Virus record (IMG/VR): IMGVR_UViG_3300038954_000089
Location: 1-58,938 of that record
Length of the DNA: 58,938 nucleotides
Reading direction: 5' to 3' (one strand)
Source: a virus
Taxonomy: Duplodnaviria; Caudoviricetes
Below, piece by piece: positions 46,875 to 52,041 of this stretch (its first letter is position 1; every line of letters begins with the position of its first letter). Under the pieces are notes generated by a model. That model saw nothing but the letters and a program-made list of their open reading frames with translations. It had not been told where the DNA came from and did not search any database. A program made the translations under genes and the position numbers.

Positions 46875-47085
46875 ACACTTGATTTTATTTACGAATAAAA
46901 ACTTGGCATCAGTTAAGCTATATGGTTCACATTTTTCAGGAAAAATCAAATTGAAAACAGATATTTACAATGCAGGTTTAAACGGTCGTAAAAAACACCG
47001 AATACCAAACCATAGGGCGGTATAAAAAGATTGATTACAAGCGATTCTACGGGGTTTGTTTTTTTTAATAGTACGTTGAATTTAC

Positions 47086-47114
47086 TTGAAATTTATATCA
47101 ATATGGTTTATAAT
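47086..47114 (+). promoter_or_regulatory. Sigma70 promoter
   Basis: TTGAAA-17-TATAAT. Confidence 0.8.
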
Positions 47115-47115
47115 T

Positions 47116-47185
47116 ATGGATGGAATAGGGTAGCTCCCGAAAAGCAAGTGTCCTGGCTTGTCTGTCCATCCATTAACCCAGGACA
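47116..47185 (+). ncRNA. Structured 5' leader (three-way junction plus pseudoknot)
   Basis: ATGGATGGA/TCCATCCAT; GGG-TAGCT-CCC; GCAAG/CTTGT with loop TGTCCTGG complementary to CCAGGACA. Confidence 0.6.
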
Positions 47186-47206
47186 AACAACTACAGGAGG
47201 TTGAAA

Positions 47207-47938
47207 ATGGGTATAATTTACACACCGAGAGGCAGGGCGCAGGAATATTCACCTTTGGCGGCTAATTTGTTTTCAGGATGCGTCCATGGATGCAAGTATT
47301 GTTATGCTCCGGCTTGTTTGAGGCGAAAGCCGGAAGATTTCCACGGAAAAACTATTGTCAGGAAAGATGTTCTCGATATTATTGAAAAGGACTTGAAGAA
47401 AATTCAACCCAGCCTTTTTGATGACGATTTACCGCCAGTTTTGCTTTGTTTTACGACTGATCCGTATCAGCCGAACGAAAGTAAAGAAATCACACGACAG
47501 GCTTTAGAGCTTTTCAGGTGGTACGATTACCCATTCCAGGTATTGACCAAGGGCGGCATGAGGGCGGCGCTGGATTTTGATTTATTCTCAGGAAAAGACG
47601 CTTTTGCGTCAACCCTTACCTTTTTAGATGAATCTTTGTCAAAAGAGTGGGAACCTTTCGCCGCGAGTCCATCCGACAGGATTGAGGCCATAAAACTTGC
47701 GAAACAAAAAGGCATCCATACATGGGTATCGTTTGAGCCGGTTCTTGATGCTGATCAAGTTTTTCAGCTTTATGAAGCCACAAAGGATTTTGTCGATCTT
47801 TATAAGGTCGGGAAATGCTCTGGCACATATTCCAATGTAATAGATTGGGCCGCATTCGCCGGAGAAATTATTCGTCGAATGGAAGATGATGGCAAAAACT
47901 ATTACATCAAAAATGATCTTAGGAAGCACATAGAATAA
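47207..47938 (+). CDS. Radical SAM protein (spore photoproduct lyase-like)
   Basis: GCVHGCKYCYA; FTTDPYQ; LTKGG; TWVSFEPV. Confidence 0.9.
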   Translation: MGIIYTPRGRAQEYSPLAANLFSGCVHGCKYCYAPACLRRKPEDFHGKTIVRKDVLDIIEKDLKKIQPSLFDDDLPPVLLCFTTDPYQPNESKEITRQALELFRWYDYPFQVLTKGGMRAALDFDLFSGKDAFASTLTFLDESLSKEWEPFAASPSDRIEAIKLAKQKGIHTWVSFEPVLDADQVFQLYEATKDFVDLYKVGKCSGTYSNVIDWAAFAGEIIRRMEDDGKNYYIKNDLRKHIE

Positions 47939-48312
47939 TGCCTGCTGGAAGGCCGAAAAAACAAATCAACCTCGACGAAGCGGCGAAGCTGTGTAGCCTG
48001 CAATGTACCCTTTCCGAAATCGCCGGCTTTTTTGGTATCGATGAAGACACCGTACAGGCCAGGATAAGAGATGCTGGATATGACAATTTTTCGGCCTTCT
48101 ATAAAAAGCATTCCCACGGCGGGAAAATAAGTCTCAGGAGAAATCAGTTTAAGCTATCTGAGAAGAGCGCGGCCATGGCCATTTGGCTCGGCAAGCAATA
48201 TCTATGGCAATCTGATTATCCGAATCAAGAATTTGATGAAGAGATGGATGATGGTTTTTTTGACGCCTTGAACGACACCGCGCAGGAAGTGTTCGACGAT
48301 GGCGACGAATAA
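47938..48312 (+). CDS. terS: Terminase small subunit
   Basis: GRPKKQI; HTH; SLRRNQF..A.MAIWLGKQYL.Q; directly before terL. Confidence 0.8.
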   Translation: MPAGRPKKQINLDEAAKLCSLQCTLSEIAGFFGIDEDTVQARIRDAGYDNFSAFYKKHSHGGKISLRRNQFKLSEKSAAMAIWLGKQYLWQSDYPNQEFDEEMDDGFFDALNDTAQEVFDDGDE

Positions 48313-50632
48313 GCGAGATCAAGCCCGTCCATTCAAGTGGGGGACGTTATCCCGGAAAGCCAAGCAGGCGCTTACCTGGTGGGTTGATTCGTCGCCGCAT
48401 CGGCACAAGGATATTTTTATCGCCGATGGTGCGGTCCGGTCGTCGAAATCCTTGTGTGTTTCATCTGCTTTTGTCGATTGGGCGATGGAGCGGTTTTCCG
48501 GGGAGTTGTTCGGTATGGCAGGTAAGACCATCGGATCATTTCGTCAAAATGTTCTGCGGGATTTAAAGCGCGTTATGGTTGGGCGGGGGTACACGTTCAA
48601 GGACCGGCGATCCGAGAACGTTTTGGAAGTATCCAAAGGCCGCCGTGTCAATGAATTTGAAATATTCGGCGGGAAAGATGAAGCAAGCCAGGATTTGATC
48701 CAGGGGCGGACGCTGGCCGGTTTTCTCGGTGACGAGGCAGCTCTTTATCCGCAGTCGTTTCTGAAGCAGGCGATGGCGCGATGCTCGGTTGACGGATCGA
48801 AAATATGGTTGACGTGCAATCCTGGACCGCCGCAGCACCCAATCAAAAAAGAGTTGATCGACCGTGCCAAAGAGTTGAATCTGCTTCATATCCACTTTAC
48901 CCTCGATGACAACCTCACCTTAACGGAATCCATCAAGAATCGGTACAAAGCACTGTATTCCGGTCTTTTTTTTAAGCGGTTCATTCTTGGCCTATGGGTC
49001 ATGGCCGACGGAATCATTTATGATATGTTCGATCCAGACCGGCATATAGTTGATGATGTGGATTTGACGGGATGGAATCAGCTTATATCCGGTGTCGATT
49101 ATGGCATCGGAAACCCGACAACATGGGATGAAACATGGACGGACGGTGAACGGTTCCACGTTGCGCGGGAATATTATCATTCATCCGGTGTGACCGGACG
49201 GCAGATGACGGATGATGAATATGCGGATGAATTCGATGCTTTCTGGGGAGAAAGACGGCCGGACAAGGTTTACATCGACCCGTCGGCCGCGTCGCTGAAA
49301 TTGGCATTGCAGAACCGTGGATATTCGATATTTTCAGCGGACAATGACGTGCTGGAGGGGATCAAGTATGTATCGACGCTTTTGCATACCGGAAAATTGA
49401 CGTTTTCACCGAGTTGCCACAACCTGATTGAGGAAATGGGTTCATATATTTGGGACGCCAATGCCCAAAAGCGCGGAGAAGATAAGCCGTTGAAGGCGAT
49501 GGACCATTGTTTTGCGGCTGGAACTATGGTCGAAACAATCAATGGAGAGGTGCCGATAGAAGAGATAGTGGAGGGCGACTTGGTTTTAACGTCGCAAGGG
49601 TTCAAGAACGTTTTGTCTTCTGGCATAACGTCAAAAAATGCAGAGGTATTCGATTTCTTGATGCCTAACGATACAGTTTTAATTGCAACAAAAGGACACC
49701 CGGTGTATACTGAATGCAATGGATTTGTTGAAATATCAAACCTTAAAAAGGGGGATGTTTTAAAATGCCTTTGCAAGCAGAAACACAGGAGTTTAACGGA
49801 ATCGTGTATAGACGTTATCCAGAATCAGAAACAATGTCAGATCGGCGGTATTTTAGGTGTAATTCAAACCATTTTGAAAAGGGCTTACGATATTTGCATC
49901 GAGACATTTGGAAGTTTCATTACGGAGAAATACCGAATGGACACCATATCCACCACATCGATGGGGACTTTTCAAATAACTCCATCGAAAACTTACGGCT
50001 TGTCCATGCCTCTGAGCACTTATCAGAACACGGAAAGAAAGGGTGGGAAAATAGGATCGAAGAAGGGCTTAAACGTCTCGAAGAAATCAGGCCGCTTGCC
50101 GCTAAGTGGCATAGCAGCGAAGAAGGTAAAAAATGGCATTCTGAACATGCCAAAAAAGTTTTTGGCAATCTTCCGTATAGACGGTCGTCGTGTGAGGTTT
50201 GCGGGAAAGAATACGAAACAAAGAGACCGGATTTGTCAAGATTTTGCTCCAATAACTGCAAATCAAAATTCAGGAGAATGTCAGGCATTGACGACATTGC
50301 AAGGCAATGTAAAAGATGTGGGAAAGAGTTTGTTATTAACAAATACAGCAAGACGATCTTTTGTTCAGGCCGTTGTGCAAAAAAATATCATTGGGGAAAA
50401 TAAGCGAACGGCAACGGTTTACAATTTGACTGTTGATAATTGCCCGGAGTTTTTTGCCAATGGGGTATTGGTTCATAATTGTCAGGATCGCACTCGCTAC
50501 GCCCTATTTTCGCATTCTGGCAAATGGGCAAGAACTCCTCTTTCATACGCCGGAGCGGATCAAGGCCAAACAGCGACCACTCGGAAAGATGGCAAGCAAC
50601 GACCTACCCGCAGAATGCGAGGATTGAGATAA
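48299..50632 (+). CDS. terL: Terminase large subunit (PBSX-like) with intein
   Basis: DGAVRSSKS; GDEAAL; TCNP; GVDYG; IDPSAAS; DH|C.D.TRYA interrupted by the intein. Confidence 0.95.
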   Translation: MATNKRDQARPFKWGTLSRKAKQALTWWVDSSPHRHKDIFIADGAVRSSKSLCVSSAFVDWAMERFSGELFGMAGKTIGSFRQNVLRDLKRVMVGRGYTFKDRRSENVLEVSKGRRVNEFEIFGGKDEASQDLIQGRTLAGFLGDEAALYPQSFLKQAMARCSVDGSKIWLTCNPGPPQHPIKKELIDRAKELNLLHIHFTLDDNLTLTESIKNRYKALYSGLFFKRFILGLWVMADGIIYDMFDPDRHIVDDVDLTGWNQLISGVDYGIGNPTTWDETWTDGERFHVAREYYHSSGVTGRQMTDDEYADEFDAFWGERRPDKVYIDPSAASLKLALQNRGYSIFSADNDVLEGIKYVSTLLHTGKLTFSPSCHNLIEEMGSYIWDANAQKRGEDKPLKAMDHCFAAGTMVETINGEVPIEEIVEGDLVLTSQGFKNVLSSGITSKNAEVFDFLMPNDTVLIATKGHPVYTECNGFVEISNLKKGDVLKCLCKQKHRSLTESCIDVIQNQKQCQIGGILGVIQTILKRAYDICIETFGSFITEKYRMDTISTTSMGTFQITPSKTYGLSMPLSTYQNTERKGGKIGSKKGLNVSKKSGRLPLSGIAAKKVKNGILNMPKKFLAIFRIDGRRVRFAGKNTKQRDRICQDFAPITANQNSGECQALTTLQGNVKDVGKSLLLTNTARRSFVQAVVQKNIIGENKRTATVYNLTVDNCPEFFANGVLVHNCQDRTRYALFSHSGKWARTPLSYAGADQGQTATTRKDGKQRPTRRMRGLR
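49508..50479 (+). mobile_element. Intein (324 aa) in the terminase nuclease domain
   Basis: Block A CFAAGTMV; block B ATKGHPV; blocks F/G VYNLTV...FFANGVLVHN followed by C. Confidence 0.95.
49765..50403 (+). CDS. HNH homing endonuclease with zinc fingers, nested in the -1 frame of the intein
   Basis: LHRDIW...HIHHIDGDFSNNSIENL...EH; CEVC..FCSNNC; CKRC..FCSGRC; SD GGGGGA 9 nt upstream. Confidence 0.9.
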   Translation: MPLQAETQEFNGIVYRRYPESETMSDRRYFRCNSNHFEKGLRYLHRDIWKFHYGEIPNGHHIHHIDGDFSNNSIENLRLVHASEHLSEHGKKGWENRIEEGLKRLEEIRPLAAKWHSSEEGKKWHSEHAKKVFGNLPYRRSSCEVCGKEYETKRPDLSRFCSNNCKSKFRRMSGIDDIARQCKRCGKEFVINKYSKTIFCSGRCAKKYHWGK

Positions 50633-52041
50633 TGGGTATCCGTCAACGCATAGCGCGACTACTTGCACCCAACCTGATCGAGCGGAAAGAACTTGACGCC
50701 ATTGTTGCGGAAAAGGTTTTGCAAGCGCAACAGGCCATCCCGGCTTTCCGTGATTACGACAAAAACAATCAGGGATTCAGGCCGCTATCGGGCATTGAGG
50801 GACATAAACGGGACCTGTCGCCGATCTCCCAAACGCAGATGATTGAGTCGGCATATTACTATTTCGACACGTCCGGGCTCGTGAGGCGATTTATCCGGGA
50901 TACTCGGAACTTCACGGTGGGGAAGGGGTTCGAGTGGAGGGTCGAAAACGACACAGAAGACGGCCAAGCCCGGCAGGTATTGGTTGATTTTTGGGATTCG
51001 TTTTACAACGGTTGGGGCCGTCTTTTCGATGAGCGGATCGACACATGGTATTTGCTCGGCGAGATCGCACTCGCAATCGACGTGAATAAATTTAATGGGT
51101 CCGTCACGATATCTGACATCGATCCGGCGAACATTAACGATGTGCTGACGGTTCGGTCATTCCCAGGAATACCAGCGGCGCTTGAATTGGCAGGATCGCG
51201 GACATCTGTTAATAAGGCCGTGGTCCGTGAGGACCTCCAACCAACGTCGCGTACATACAAGCGGCTGGTCGGGGAGGTGTTTTTCGAGGCGCTAAACAAG
51301 ACGCCGACTGCATCCCGTGGACGGTCTGATCTGCTGACGGTTTTCGATTTTATCGATTCTTTGGAGCAGGGGCTTTTCGATGAATTGGATCGGTCCCGGT
51401 TTATGAAAAACTTTATCTGGGACATCACAATTGAAGGTGCCACCCAAGCAGAGATCGACGAATATGCCGCAAAGCAGGGGCCGCCTGACCCAGGGTCTGG
51501 GCGGTACCACAATGAGCGAGTTAAGTGGGAGGCGGTTACACCGGATTTGAAAGCGGCCGACAACAAAGCCCTGTATGATACGATCAAGAGCTATGTCGCC
51601 GCTTCACAAAATCGCCCTGACTCATGGCTCGGCGGAGGCGGGAAAGCCTATCAGACAGAGGCCGATTTGATGGGCGAGCCGACTTTTATGGATCTGGAAT
51701 CCCGTCAGAACAGGAATAAACTTTTCCTCCATGACATGGCGCGGTACGTTATCGATCAGGCTGTGATTCACAAGGCGATCCCGAACGGCGATTACAAGAT
51801 CAGCGTTGACACGCCGGATTTGTCGAAAAAAGACATTGCTTCCGTTGCATCGGCATTGCCTCAGTTGTCTAATGCCCTGTCGATGGCCGTAGAGCAGGGA
51901 TGGTGCAGGCGCGAAACGGCAACCCGGATATGGGCGTCACTCGCCAGCGAGACGGGCGTTGACGTGGACCCGGAGGCTGAAATTGAAGCACAACCGGAAC
52001 CAGGCAGCGGAGAAGAACAGGTTACGAAGGACTATCAATGA
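50632..52041 (+). CDS. Portal protein
   Basis: Follows terL with TAATG coupling; 469 aa; RGRSDL motif. Confidence 0.85.
   Translation: MGIRQRIARLLAPNLIERKELDAIVAEKVLQAQQAIPAFRDYDKNNQGFRPLSGIEGHKRDLSPISQTQMIESAYYYFDTSGLVRRFIRDTRNFTVGKGFEWRVENDTEDGQARQVLVDFWDSFYNGWGRLFDERIDTWYLLGEIALAIDVNKFNGSVTISDIDPANINDVLTVRSFPGIPAALELAGSRTSVNKAVVREDLQPTSRTYKRLVGEVFFEALNKTPTASRGRSDLLTVFDFIDSLEQGLFDELDRSRFMKNFIWDITIEGATQAEIDEYAAKQGPPDPGSGRYHNERVKWEAVTPDLKAADNKALYDTIKSYVAASQNRPDSWLGGGGKAYQTEADLMGEPTFMDLESRQNRNKLFLHDMARYVIDQAVIHKAIPNGDYKISVDTPDLSKKDIASVASALPQLSNALSMAVEQGWCRRETATRIWASLASETGVDVDPEAEIEAQPEPGSGEEQVTKDYQ

What the first reader, a model, noticed from the sequence alone, without database searches (positions are those of the whole stretch)
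49508..50479. Dual-coding intein: homing endonuclease encoded in a different reading frame inside the terminase intein
Seen: the terL frame stays open through a 324 aa intein with intact splicing blocks (CFAAGT, TKGH, VHN|C), inserted in the catalytic DH|CQD motif. Its central ~213 codons look like no protein domain. The same bases in the -1 frame (49765-50403) encode a complete HNH nuclease with two zinc-finger units, its own ATG and an SD-like GGGGGA supplied by the intein KKGD codons. Established: canonical inteins carry the endonuclease in-frame. Inference: the endonuclease is translated separately while the intein frame is kept free of stops as a spacer removed by splicing. This is a nested mobile element that uncouples nuclease expression from terminase splicing.
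Basis: partly seen in the sequence, partly recalled or inferred. Interest (0 to 1): 0.9.

Follow-up and report, generated by a model that had tools for sequence, protein, structure and literature searches.

The report
Terminase intein with overprinted HNH gene
A phage DNA-packaging gene carries a self-splicing protein insert (an intein) whose middle also encodes, one base out of step, a complete DNA-cutting "homing" enzyme; the layout is real and widely conserved, but this kind of intein is already in print.

Summary
The terL ORF 48299-50632 (777 aa) holds a 324-aa Hint intein (49508-50479). A complete HNH_3 nuclease ORF (49765-50403, 212 aa) lies inside it in the -1 frame.

It is neither chance nor an assembly error. 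The same layout, with the same frame offset and the same insertion site before the C.DA.RY motif, recurs in 41 of the 78 other loci that encode this HNH family. These include Tetrasphaera phage TJE1, C. difficile phage phiCDHM19 and Acinetobacter phage Highwayman.

Selection acts on the HNH frame. The intein frame is kept free of stops only. AlphaFold folds the HNH product well (pLDDT 88.8). It folds only the two ends of the intein-frame product.

Contigs from another sample carry a close terL relative with the empty site exactly at DH|C. Relatives of the same HNH also occur in-frame, in split ("fractured") terL genes and antisense.

The kind is published: Brucella phage terL (2015), actinophage inteins (2025 preprint) and the dnaX intein (2026 preprint). 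This scan also found the layout before on other DNA. My verdict is a new member of a known kind. Separate translation of the nuclease is inferred, not shown.

The parts
48299..50632 (+). terL precursor ORF (777 aa, stop included): N-extein, intein and C-extein
   Evidence: The N-extein matches TIGR01547, PBSX family terminase large subunit, at E 4.9e-44 (151.3 bits, cut-off 105).
48299..49507 (+). N-extein (403 aa), ending ...AMDH
   Evidence: The boundary is fixed by the alignment of 31 precursors and by the empty-site allele.
49508..50479 (+). Intein, 324 aa, from Cys1 to the terminal Asn
   Evidence: Pfam Hint families. C1, T61, H64 and N324 are invariant in 28 aligned inteins.
49508..49780 (+). 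N-terminal splicing lobe of the intein (aa 1-91, blocks A and B)
   Evidence: AlphaFold pLDDT 85-96 for the ten-residue blocks of aa 1-90. Conserved in the alignment.
49781..50350 (+). Intein-frame spacer (aa 92-281): open frame with no predicted fold
   Evidence: pLDDT below 50 over residues 92-281. No Pfam domain. Its amino-acid identity is lower than the HNH frame's in 454 of 454 pairs.
50351..50479 (+). C-terminal splicing lobe (aa 282-324, blocks F and G, ...FFANGVLVHN)
   Evidence: AlphaFold pLDDT: the ten-residue blocks for aa 281-290 and 291-300 average 69 and 77, and those for aa 301-324 average 94-96. The motif is conserved in every nested locus.
49765..50403 (+). HNH_3 homing-endonuclease-like gene (212 aa plus TAA), -1 frame, with two CxxC...CxxxC zinc units
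   Evidence: HNH_3 E 3.7e-17. phrog_15471 E 2.4e-40. AlphaFold pLDDT 88.8. I-HmuI (1u3e) is the best solved match: profile E 0.0022, VIA Z 7.7.
49750..49755 (+). SD-like GGGGGA, 9 nt before the HNH ATG
   Evidence: Read from the sequence. Function is inferred.
49744..49746 (+). TAA that closes the HNH frame 6 codons before its ATG
49747..49765 (+). Two -1 slippery-type heptamers in the terL frame (A_AAG_GGG at 49747-49753, T_TTA_AAA at 49759-49765)
   Evidence: They are specific to this window. Only 7 of 31 relatives have any such heptamer near the border.
50480..50632 (+). C-extein (50 aa plus stop), starting CQDRTRY
   Evidence: It follows DH directly in the intein-less relative.

Best explanation
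This is a mobile intein in the nuclease domain of a PBSX-type phage large terminase. Its homing endonuclease is not a domain of the intein protein. It is a separate gene overprinted in the -1 frame of the intein's central region.

Ribosomes that translate terL read through 49766-50401 as a stop-free, unstructured linker between the two Hint lobes. The intein then splices itself out to give a 453-aa TerL (inferred). Other ribosomes start at ATG 49765, behind the SD-like GGGGGA, and make a free 212-aa I-HmuI-like HNH protein with two zinc-ribbon units (inferred).

That nuclease most likely cuts intein-less terL alleles near the DH|C(Q)D site. Repair from an intein-bearing copy would then spread the whole element (inferred from the family).

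Shown here:
- the anatomy of the element;
- its conservation in 41 other loci;
- purifying selection on the HNH frame together with stop avoidance in the intein frame;
- an exact empty-site allele in a close relative.
For: 1. Anatomy.

2. Conservation. 41 of the 78 other loci with this HNH have a 351-1111 aa ORF in the frame HNH+1 that covers the whole HNH match. None has one in the frame HNH+2, apart from a 286-aa ORF in L076. In the 40 of them that do not end at a contig edge, plus the window, the HNH stop is followed by the block F/G motif, a terminal Asn and a +1 Cys/Ser/Thr. All 31 aligned precursors start the intein with Cys and share the insertion site before C.DA.RY. Pfam on those 31 finds Intein_splicing in 27, Terminase_3 in 18 and Terminase_6N in 18. 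HNH_3 is found in 28 of 28 HNH products.

3. Selection. HNH-frame identity is 0.37 against 0.22 for the intein frame, and is higher in 454 of 454 pairs. In the 8 close pairs, differences by HNH codon position 1/2/3 are 188/143/266. The 26 homologues not covered by an intein frame carry 3.6 stops per 100 codons in that frame, against 0 in the nested ones. Synonymous permutation gives P(0 stops) below 0.05 in 26 of 31 loci. On the same nucleotide alignment, identity in the second frame is 0.227 for nested pairs and 0.21 for non-nested pairs. The spacer therefore shows little constraint beyond staying open.

4. Fold. HNH pLDDT is 88.8. In the intein, residues 92-281 are below 50. I-HmuI is the top match.

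5. Start. The first start codon after the upstream stop is ATG in 26 of 31 loci, 1-17 codons after that stop. It aligns at the family N-terminus.

6. Mobility. Contigs of run X2 (another sample and study) match terL at 88-99% and run from ...DH straight into CQD (my hand reading of tables 7 and 8). Contigs in runs X3 and X4 hold an intein/HNH relative about 90% alike with unlike flanks. HNH identity exceeds N-extein identity, for example 0.69 against 0.29 for L053/L055.

7. The record is a complete 58.9-kb virus genome with terminal repeats, so terL is expected to work.
Against: There is no RNA, ribosome or peptide evidence for either product. Splicing and DNA cleavage are untested.

The SD is only SD-like, and most relatives have no SD at all. 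Their hosts are unknown.

The window has two slippery-type heptamers right at the 5' border, so a frameshift route is not excluded for this copy.

The closest terL relatives among the 119 non-self rows listed are at most 55% identical. The evidence for recent homing therefore rests on low-depth contigs (2-6x) laid, which I could not fetch whole.

The 31 loci are related, so the per-locus P values are not independent.

The nested class was defined by an open frame, so the '0 stops' is partly circular. The Hint motifs and the shared insertion site are the independent support.
Confidence: 0.8

Rival explanations
1. The nuclease is made by programmed ribosomal frameshifting, not by internal initiation. 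A -1 shift at A_AAG_GGG or T_TTA_AAA would fuse TerL-N and the N-lobe of the intein to the HNH. A second +1 shift before TAA 50401 would restore a canonical in-frame intein.
For: Two X_XXY_YYZ heptamers in the terL frame lie directly after the HNH-frame stop. The companion note e1-6283606 raised the same idea.
Against: Only 7 of 31 relatives have any such heptamer near the border, and most of those lie downstream of the ATG. The 3' borders show no common shift site. An ATG within 1-17 codons of the stop is the shared feature. Free-standing and split relatives make the same protein from their own start.
Confidence: 0.06
2. The HNH has been taken over as a helper nuclease for DNA packaging (terminase-associated HNH) and is not a homing enzyme.
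For: Free-standing homologues sit beside terS/terL in cultured phages: BP10, PAE1 and CL2. The Brucella phage paper proposes such a link for its own nested HNH.
Against: A close terL relative lacks the whole element, so it is dispensable. The best structural relative is the intron homing enzyme I-HmuI. The element is more conserved than its host gene across very different terL genes.
Confidence: 0.08
3. The HNH ORF is a decaying relic that is no longer expressed. Only terL function keeps the other frame open.
For: No expression data exist. Most relatives have no SD.
Against: The catalytic and zinc residues H45, H63, H64, N72, N76, H85 and four Cys are invariant in 28 sequences. Third-position excess and higher identity are seen in the HNH frame. 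The AlphaFold model is confident.
Confidence: 0.04
4. This is an assembly or sequencing artefact: two compensating indels hide an ordinary in-frame intein nuclease.
For: In-frame relatives exist (L051/L052).
Against: The same frame offset occurs in 41 independently assembled loci, including three isolate genomes. A second assembly of the run gives 0 differences. Stops in the HNH frame lie 6 codons before the ATG, and the ORF ends at its own TAA.
Confidence: 0.01

Closest known systems
Brucella phage Tb/Pr terL intein with a nested out-of-frame HNH (GenBank NC_019446; Virol J 2015, PMC4422536, passages read)
   Same: The host gene is terL. The intein reading frame runs through. A complete HNH gene lies on the same strand in another frame inside the intein.
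   Different: The HNH is in the +1 frame ((2171-1348) mod 3 = 1). Its family is PF01844, with the zinc units before the HNH motif. The intein sits in the ATPase half, at aa 181-506 of 848. Only the zinc and HNH motifs align with the window's protein, at E 2e-4.
[quoted passage not shown]
   Same: The nuclease is in 'frame 3' relative to the intein, the same offset as here. Some are in terL. The in-frame middle has no recognisable fold. The authors propose that a free-standing nuclease gene invaded the intein.
   Different: Their nuclease is assigned to IPR004211 (endonuclease VII), while the one here is HNH_3/I-HmuI-like. tblastn with the TJE1 homologue found 22 phage records. The organism names shown for them are Tetrasphaera, Acinetobacter, Exiguobacterium, Pseudomonas, Lactobacillus, Clostridium, Sphaerotilus, Salmonella, Escherichia, Rhodobacteraceae, Brevundimonas and an unnamed bacteriophage. 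Their supplementary tables were not available to me.
Cyanobacterial dnaX intein with an out-of-frame LAGLIDADG nuclease (Phillips et al., bioRxiv 10.64898/2026.09.14.751524; abstract and section 17 read; it credits Gorbalenya 1998)
   Same: An overlapping frame encodes the nuclease. Purifying selection acts in the nuclease frame and is relaxed in the intein frame. Intein-free and intein-bearing alleles coexist.
   Different: The host gene is cellular, the nuclease is LAGLIDADG, and the frame is +2.
Fractured genes: split inteins with a free-standing nuclease gene between the halves (Dassa et al. 2009, PMC2677866, passages read)
   Same: Relatives of this very HNH sit between TerL-N+IntN and IntC+TerL-C ORFs, for example L008, L032 and L070. 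That paper predicted HNH could fracture genes.
   Different: The window's intein is contiguous, with one ORF through the nuclease gene. The 2009 nucleases were GIY-YIG and Vsr-like.
I-HmuI, the HNH homing endonuclease of a Bacillus phage SPO1 group I intron (PDB 1u3e)
   Same: It is the best solved relative of the catalytic part: profile E 0.0022; VIA Z 7.7, rmsd 2.9 over 78 residues, with the next entry at 4.6.
   Different: I-HmuI is intron-encoded. Its C-terminal DNA-binding part differs. Here there is a long helical linker with a WH.SEEGKKWH motif and one or two zinc ribbons.
ShiLan 'hidden' HNH in a phage methylase (Arsenault et al. 2025, PMC11855218; abstract and discussion read)
   Same: An out-of-frame HNH lies inside a host ORF that stays open.
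   Different: No intein or other splicing element is detectable there. Here the splicing blocks are intact.

Membership tests
Intein (Hint-domain protein-splicing element, class 1 type) | N-terminal Cys/Ser nucleophile and the block B T..H motif | tested here: met
   C1, T61 and H64 of the intein are invariant in 28 aligned inteins. Hint_2 and PT-HINT score above their Pfam cut-offs.
Intein (Hint-domain protein-splicing element, class 1 type) | C-terminal Asn followed by a Cys/Ser/Thr +1 extein residue | tested here: met
   The window reads ...VHN|C. N324 is invariant, and the +1 residue is C, S or T in 31 of 31 precursors.
Intein (Hint-domain protein-splicing element, class 1 type) | Hint fold formed by the two terminal lobes | tested here: met
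   AlphaFold gives beta-rich lobes. The ten-residue blocks of aa 1-90 average pLDDT 85-96 and those of aa 301-324 average 94-96. No structural search was run on this model.
Intein (Hint-domain protein-splicing element, class 1 type) | Actual protein splicing | not testable with these tools
   Inferred from a complete phage genome with a single terL and from an intein-less relative whose sequence joins at exactly the predicted junction.
HNH_3 / I-HmuI-like homing endonuclease | HNH (beta-beta-alpha-metal) motif with catalytic His and Asn | tested here: met
   HNH_3 scores 62.1 bits against a 24.8 cut-off. H63, H64, N72, N76 and H85 are invariant in 28 sequences. The match to 1u3e has Z 7.7.
HNH_3 / I-HmuI-like homing endonuclease | Site-specific cleavage of the element-free allele, and homing | not testable with these tools
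   Only indirect evidence: an empty-site allele and a near-identical element in another terL, and an element more conserved than its host gene.
Intein with an out-of-frame, same-strand nuclease gene (as in Gosselin 2025, Brucella phages, dnaX) | The nuclease ORF lies wholly inside the intein, in another frame, while the intein frame stays open | tested here: met
Intein with an out-of-frame, same-strand nuclease gene (as in Gosselin 2025, Brucella phages, dnaX) | Same nuclease family as a published example | tested here: not met
   Here the nuclease is HNH_3. The Brucella phage one is PF01844. The actinophage one is assigned to endonuclease VII. The dnaX one is LAGLIDADG.
Fractured gene / split intein | Separate ORFs for the N and C halves of the intein | tested here: not met
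   The window has a single ORF through the intein. The feature is met in relatives such as L008.
PBSX-family large terminase | Match to the curated equivalog model above its cut-off | tested here: met
   TIGR01547 scores 151.3 bits against a 105.05 cut-off on the N-extein.
Group I intron carrying an HNH gene | Ribozyme core detectable | tested here: inconclusive
   No Rfam match was found in 47000-52000 at E up to 1, other than int-alpA at 47118-47183. The open frame and the intact Hint blocks argue for protein splicing instead.

The most novel reading that the evidence does not exclude
In this copy the two slippery-type heptamers at the 5' border, and the A-rich run before the HNH stop, let a fraction of ribosomes shift into the HNH frame and back out of it. 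One mRNA would then yield three products: a spacer-type intein, a canonical intein with an in-frame nuclease, and a free nuclease. That would be recoding used to tune how much nuclease is tied to terminase synthesis.
Probability: 0.04. Interest if true: 0.8.

Novelty: new member of a known kind. Interest (0 to 1): 0.4.

Why it matters
The window gives a clean, complete example of two layers of selfish DNA written in one stretch: a splicing intein, and a separately read nuclease gene overprinted on it.

The family found here shows every stage that models of intein evolution predict:
- a free-standing nuclease next to terL;
- a nuclease overprinted inside a contiguous intein;
- a nuclease in frame with the intein;
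- a nuclease lying between split intein halves;
- an antisense nuclease.

The family also includes cultured phages (TJE1, phiCDHM19, Highwayman) whose records annotate only terL. Expression and homing could be tested directly in those phages, and genome annotation pipelines are missing these genes.

It does not open a new category. The design was noted in Brucella phages by 2015 and surveyed in 2025-26 preprints.

Tried and rejected
- blastn of the intein DNA against the phage collection found no match. Protein-level searches were needed.
- Group I intron as the carrier was not supported. No Rfam family reached its gathering score in 20 loci with non-nested HNH homologues. Nothing relevant was found in 47000-52000 at E up to 1. 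Intron models are weak on ORF-bearing introns, so this is inconclusive for the relatives.
- No internal promoter for the HNH was supported. One sigma-70-like site lies on the + strand (49683-49711), but 2 sites were found against 2.5 expected by shuffling.
- Frameshifting as a family feature was rejected.
- Foldseek on the whole HNH model gave no match at E <= 0.001, with 1u3e first at E 0.088. VIA re-alignment gave Z 7.7.
- No RNA holder was listed among the sequencing runs, so expression could not be examined.
- All runs laid were contigs, so starts, ends and allele frequencies could not be read. Table 5 lists no joint across the intein. I read the empty site by hand from the loose ends in table 7 and the pieces in table 8.
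- No close intein-less terL was found among proteins. The best non-self hits to the N-extein are 44-55% identical (119 non-self rows listed of 5381 hits).
- Pfam found nothing for the flanking ORFs 47938-48309 and 50632-52038. PHROGs named them terminase small subunit (weak, E 3.5e-4) and portal protein (E 6.2e-22).
- One search failed because I gave the wrong frame for the portal ORF. I corrected it.
- The supplementary tables of Gosselin et al. were closed. They may list HNH_3-type or TJE1-like inteins, which would lower the novelty further.
- That this HNH_3 family is not in print rests on searches only.
Full report
**What is there.**
The window is a complete 58,938-base virus record with direct terminal repeats. 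On the + strand, a 124-aa ORF has a weak small-terminase match (phrog_309, E 3.5e-4). It is followed by a 777-aa ORF, 48299-50632. The first 403 residues of that ORF match the curated PBSX-family large terminase model (TIGR01547, 151.3 bits, cut-off 105). A portal-like gene starts at 50632 and overlaps the terL stop by one base.

Residues 404-727 of the terL ORF (49508-50479) are an intein. Hint_2 and PT-HINT score above their Pfam cut-offs at the N-terminal end. Intein_splicing spans 443-727 but scores below its cut-off. The intein starts with Cys, has the T..H block and ends in HN followed by Cys.

Inside it, ORF 49765-50403 in the -1 frame encodes a 212-aa protein with an HNH_3 domain (E 3.7e-17). 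That protein matches phrog_15471 over nearly its whole length (E 2.4e-40). G+C falls to 0.37-0.46 across the element, against about 0.45-0.55 in the flanks.

**More than chance.**
The terL frame has no stop in the 213 codons that overlap the HNH ORF. The third frame has 27 stops across the intein. The HNH frame is closed by four stops just upstream of its ATG. Synonymous permutation of the HNH codons leaves the terL frame open in 0.76% of 20,000 trials. Codon-order shuffling leaves it open in 0.23%.

**Relatives.**
tblastn of the HNH protein found 92 phage records. In Acinetobacter phage Highwayman, Tetrasphaera phage TJE1 and C. difficile phage phiCDHM19 the match lies under a single annotated terL CDS. 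By my arithmetic on the tables, it sits at offset 2 from the CDS start, the same as in the window.

Pattern scans brought 64 viral loci and 10 genome loci. Of the 78 loci in total, 41 have a 351-1111 aa ORF in the frame HNH+1 that covers the whole HNH match. None has one in HNH+2, apart from a 286-aa ORF in L076.

In all of these except the truncated L061, the HNH stop is followed at once by the block F/G motif, a terminal Asn and a +1 Cys/Ser/Thr. The extein motif (C).DA.RY comes next in most. In many loci the HNH stop codon is itself built from the Tyr-Asp or Tyr-Asn codons of block F.

An alignment of 31 unique precursors has C404, T464, H467 and N727 invariant. All of them share one insertion site. 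Across those 31:
- Intein_splicing is found in 27;
- Terminase_3 in 18;
- Terminase_6N in 18;
- HNH_3 in 28 of 28 HNH-frame products.

Some loci are duplicates of one contig, for example L005 and L069. That is why I count 31 unique ORFs.

**Which frame is selected.**
Across 454 pairs with under 60% HNH identity, identity is 0.37 in the HNH frame and 0.22 in the intein frame. It is higher in the HNH frame in every pair. In the 8 pairs that are 70-99.5% alike at the DNA level, differences fall 188/143/266 on HNH codon positions 1/2/3. If the intein frame were the selected one, the excess should fall on position 1 instead.

The 26 homologues not covered by an intein frame carry 3.6 stops per 100 codons in that frame. 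Permutation gives P(no stop) below 0.05 in 26 of 31 nested ORFs, with a median of 0.0065. These values are not independent, because the loci are related.

On identical nucleotide alignments the second-frame identity is 0.227 in nested pairs and 0.21 in non-nested pairs. So the spacer shows little constraint beyond staying open.

AlphaFold agrees. The HNH product has a mean pLDDT of 88.8. In the intein-frame product, the ten-residue blocks of residues 1-90 average 85-96 and those of 301-324 average 94-96. Residues 92-281 are below 50.

**What the nuclease is.**
H45, H63, H64, N72, N76, H85, the WH...WH linker motif and four Cys of the first zinc unit are invariant in 28 sequences. The window and some relatives have a second zinc unit.

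The only solved relative by profile search is I-HmuI (1u3e, E 0.0022). It is also first by Foldseek (E 0.088) and by VIA (Z 7.7, rmsd 2.9, 78 residues; the next entry scores 4.6).

**How it is probably expressed.**
The first start codon after the upstream HNH-frame stop is ATG in 26 of 31 unique loci, 1-17 codons after that stop. It aligns at the family N-terminus.

The window has GGGGGA 9 nt upstream of the ATG. phiCDHM19, L025, L038 and L039 have SD-like strings too, but most loci have none.

A -1 slippery heptamer near the border occurs in 7 of 31 loci, mostly after the ATG. The 3' borders share no shift site. The window does have two such heptamers, and this keeps a frameshift route open for this copy at low odds. 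The idea came from the companion note e1-6283606. I found no support for an internal promoter.

**Mobility.**
Four sequencing runs hold part of the stretch. All are contigs.
- **X1** may be the source of the record. Its contig is identical across the stretch.
- **X2** comes from another sample and study. Its pieces match terL at 88-99%. One contig's loose end reads ...D-K-P-V-K-A-N-D-H and runs straight into C-Q-D at 50480. A second contig, ending at 49488, overlaps that loose end. I read this by hand as an intein-less allele with the empty site exactly at the predicted junction. By my count, 7 of the last 19 bases before the site differ, and the piece that abuts the site is the most diverged (26 of 220). 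This fits co-conversion or target-site change, but it is only suggestive at depths of 2-6.
- **X3 and X4** (a third study) hold an intein/HNH relative about 90% alike whose flanks are unlike the window's. Their C-extein reads C-P-D-A-L-R-Y.

Across the family the HNH is more conserved than the host N-extein. Examples are 0.69 against 0.29 for L053/L055 and 0.60 against 0.20 for L035/L071.

No close intein-less terL exists among the 119 non-self proteins listed. They are 44-55% identical and mostly 427-463 aa long.

**Other arrangements of the same nuclease.**
- Many "free" homologues sit in fractured terL genes. In L008 a TerL-N plus IntN ORF stops immediately before the HNH ATG, and an IntC plus TerL-C ORF overlaps the HNH 3' end. 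L032 and L070 are alike.
- L043 and L062 have the HNH antisense between the two halves.
- L051 and L052 carry it in frame in a canonical intein.
- In Vibrio phage 1.238.B, two "hint domain protein" CDSs flank an unannotated homologue.
- In BP10, PAE1 and CL2 the gene is free-standing beside intein-less terminase genes.

**Compared with what is known.**
Passages of a 2015 paper state that a putative intein-encoded HNH gene lies out of frame within terL in all annotated brucellaphages. The Tb record annotates terL with "intein present" and a nested HNH. That case uses the +1 frame, a PF01844 HNH and an intein in the ATPase half.

Gosselin et al. (abstract, sections 8 and 15, and passages read) report actinophage inteins, some in terL, with an endonuclease VII-like gene in "frame 3". 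They propose invasion of the intein by a free-standing nuclease gene. Phillips et al. (abstract and section 17 read) show the same selection pattern for the dnaX intein and credit Gorbalenya 1998. Dassa et al. (passages read) described fractured genes and predicted that HNH could fracture genes.

My four literature searches found no description of this HNH_3 family in terL inteins. tblastn with the TJE1 homologue found 22 records. Apart from TJE1 itself, none of the organism names shown is an actinobacterial phage.

This scan has met the layout before on other DNA. 76 notes in at least 69 genomes hold the search words, and the eight listed, all of which had follow-ups, reached the same verdict. 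One of them (e1-6014328) led me to the Brucella phage precedent, which I checked.

**Verdict.**
Splicing, separate translation and cleavage remain inferred. The element is a new member of a published kind, from a large family that current annotation overlooks.

Noticed in passing
window 47118-47183 (+): Rfam int-alpA RNA match (37.8 bits, gathering score 35.8, E 2.5e-5) upstream of the packaging genes.
   Followed up: no
window 50630-50634: The terL stop and the start of the portal-like gene overlap as TAATG. The portal-like ORF 50632-52038 matches phrog_10963 but no Pfam family.
   Followed up: partly
L008, L010, L013-L017, L020-L022, L050 (about 785-3068 in L008): A cluster of viral contigs with a fractured terL: a TerL-N+IntN ORF, then the HNH gene starting right after its stop, then an IntC+TerL-C ORF that overlaps the HNH end. 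Their N-exteins are the closest to the window's among the loci, about 45% identical.
   Followed up: partly
L043 and L062, 2537-5128: The HNH homologue lies on the opposite strand, between the split intein halves of terL.
   Followed up: no
L051 and L052 (1588-3612 in L051): The same HNH_3 family sits in frame inside a canonical intein: Intein_splicing at 297-631 and HNH_3 at 399-443 of one 675-aa ORF.
   Followed up: partly
L083 (Vibrio phage 1.238.B), 2501-3070: Two annotated 'hint domain protein' CDSs flank an unannotated HNH homologue. This looks like a fractured terL in a cultured phage.
   Followed up: no
L079 (Acinetobacter phage BP10) against L001 (phage Highwayman): BP10 has the HNH free-standing just upstream of terS and an intein-less terL. 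Highwayman has it nested in a terL intein. This could serve as a natural pair for homing tests.
   Followed up: no
L045, 2719-2868: Matches to the N and C lobes of the intein lie next to each other, directly upstream of a free HNH gene. This may be a mini-intein followed by the nuclease gene.
   Followed up: no
window about 50630, run X2 record 7: The close relative in run X2 has about 189 extra letters between the end of terL and the portal start (table 8).
   Followed up: no
L082 (C. difficile phage phiCD119), 778-2595: This older record annotates a short 'ter2' and a separate hypothetical ORF3. In phiCDHM19 the same region is one terL with the nested HNH. The difference may be annotation or sequence quality.
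   Followed up: no
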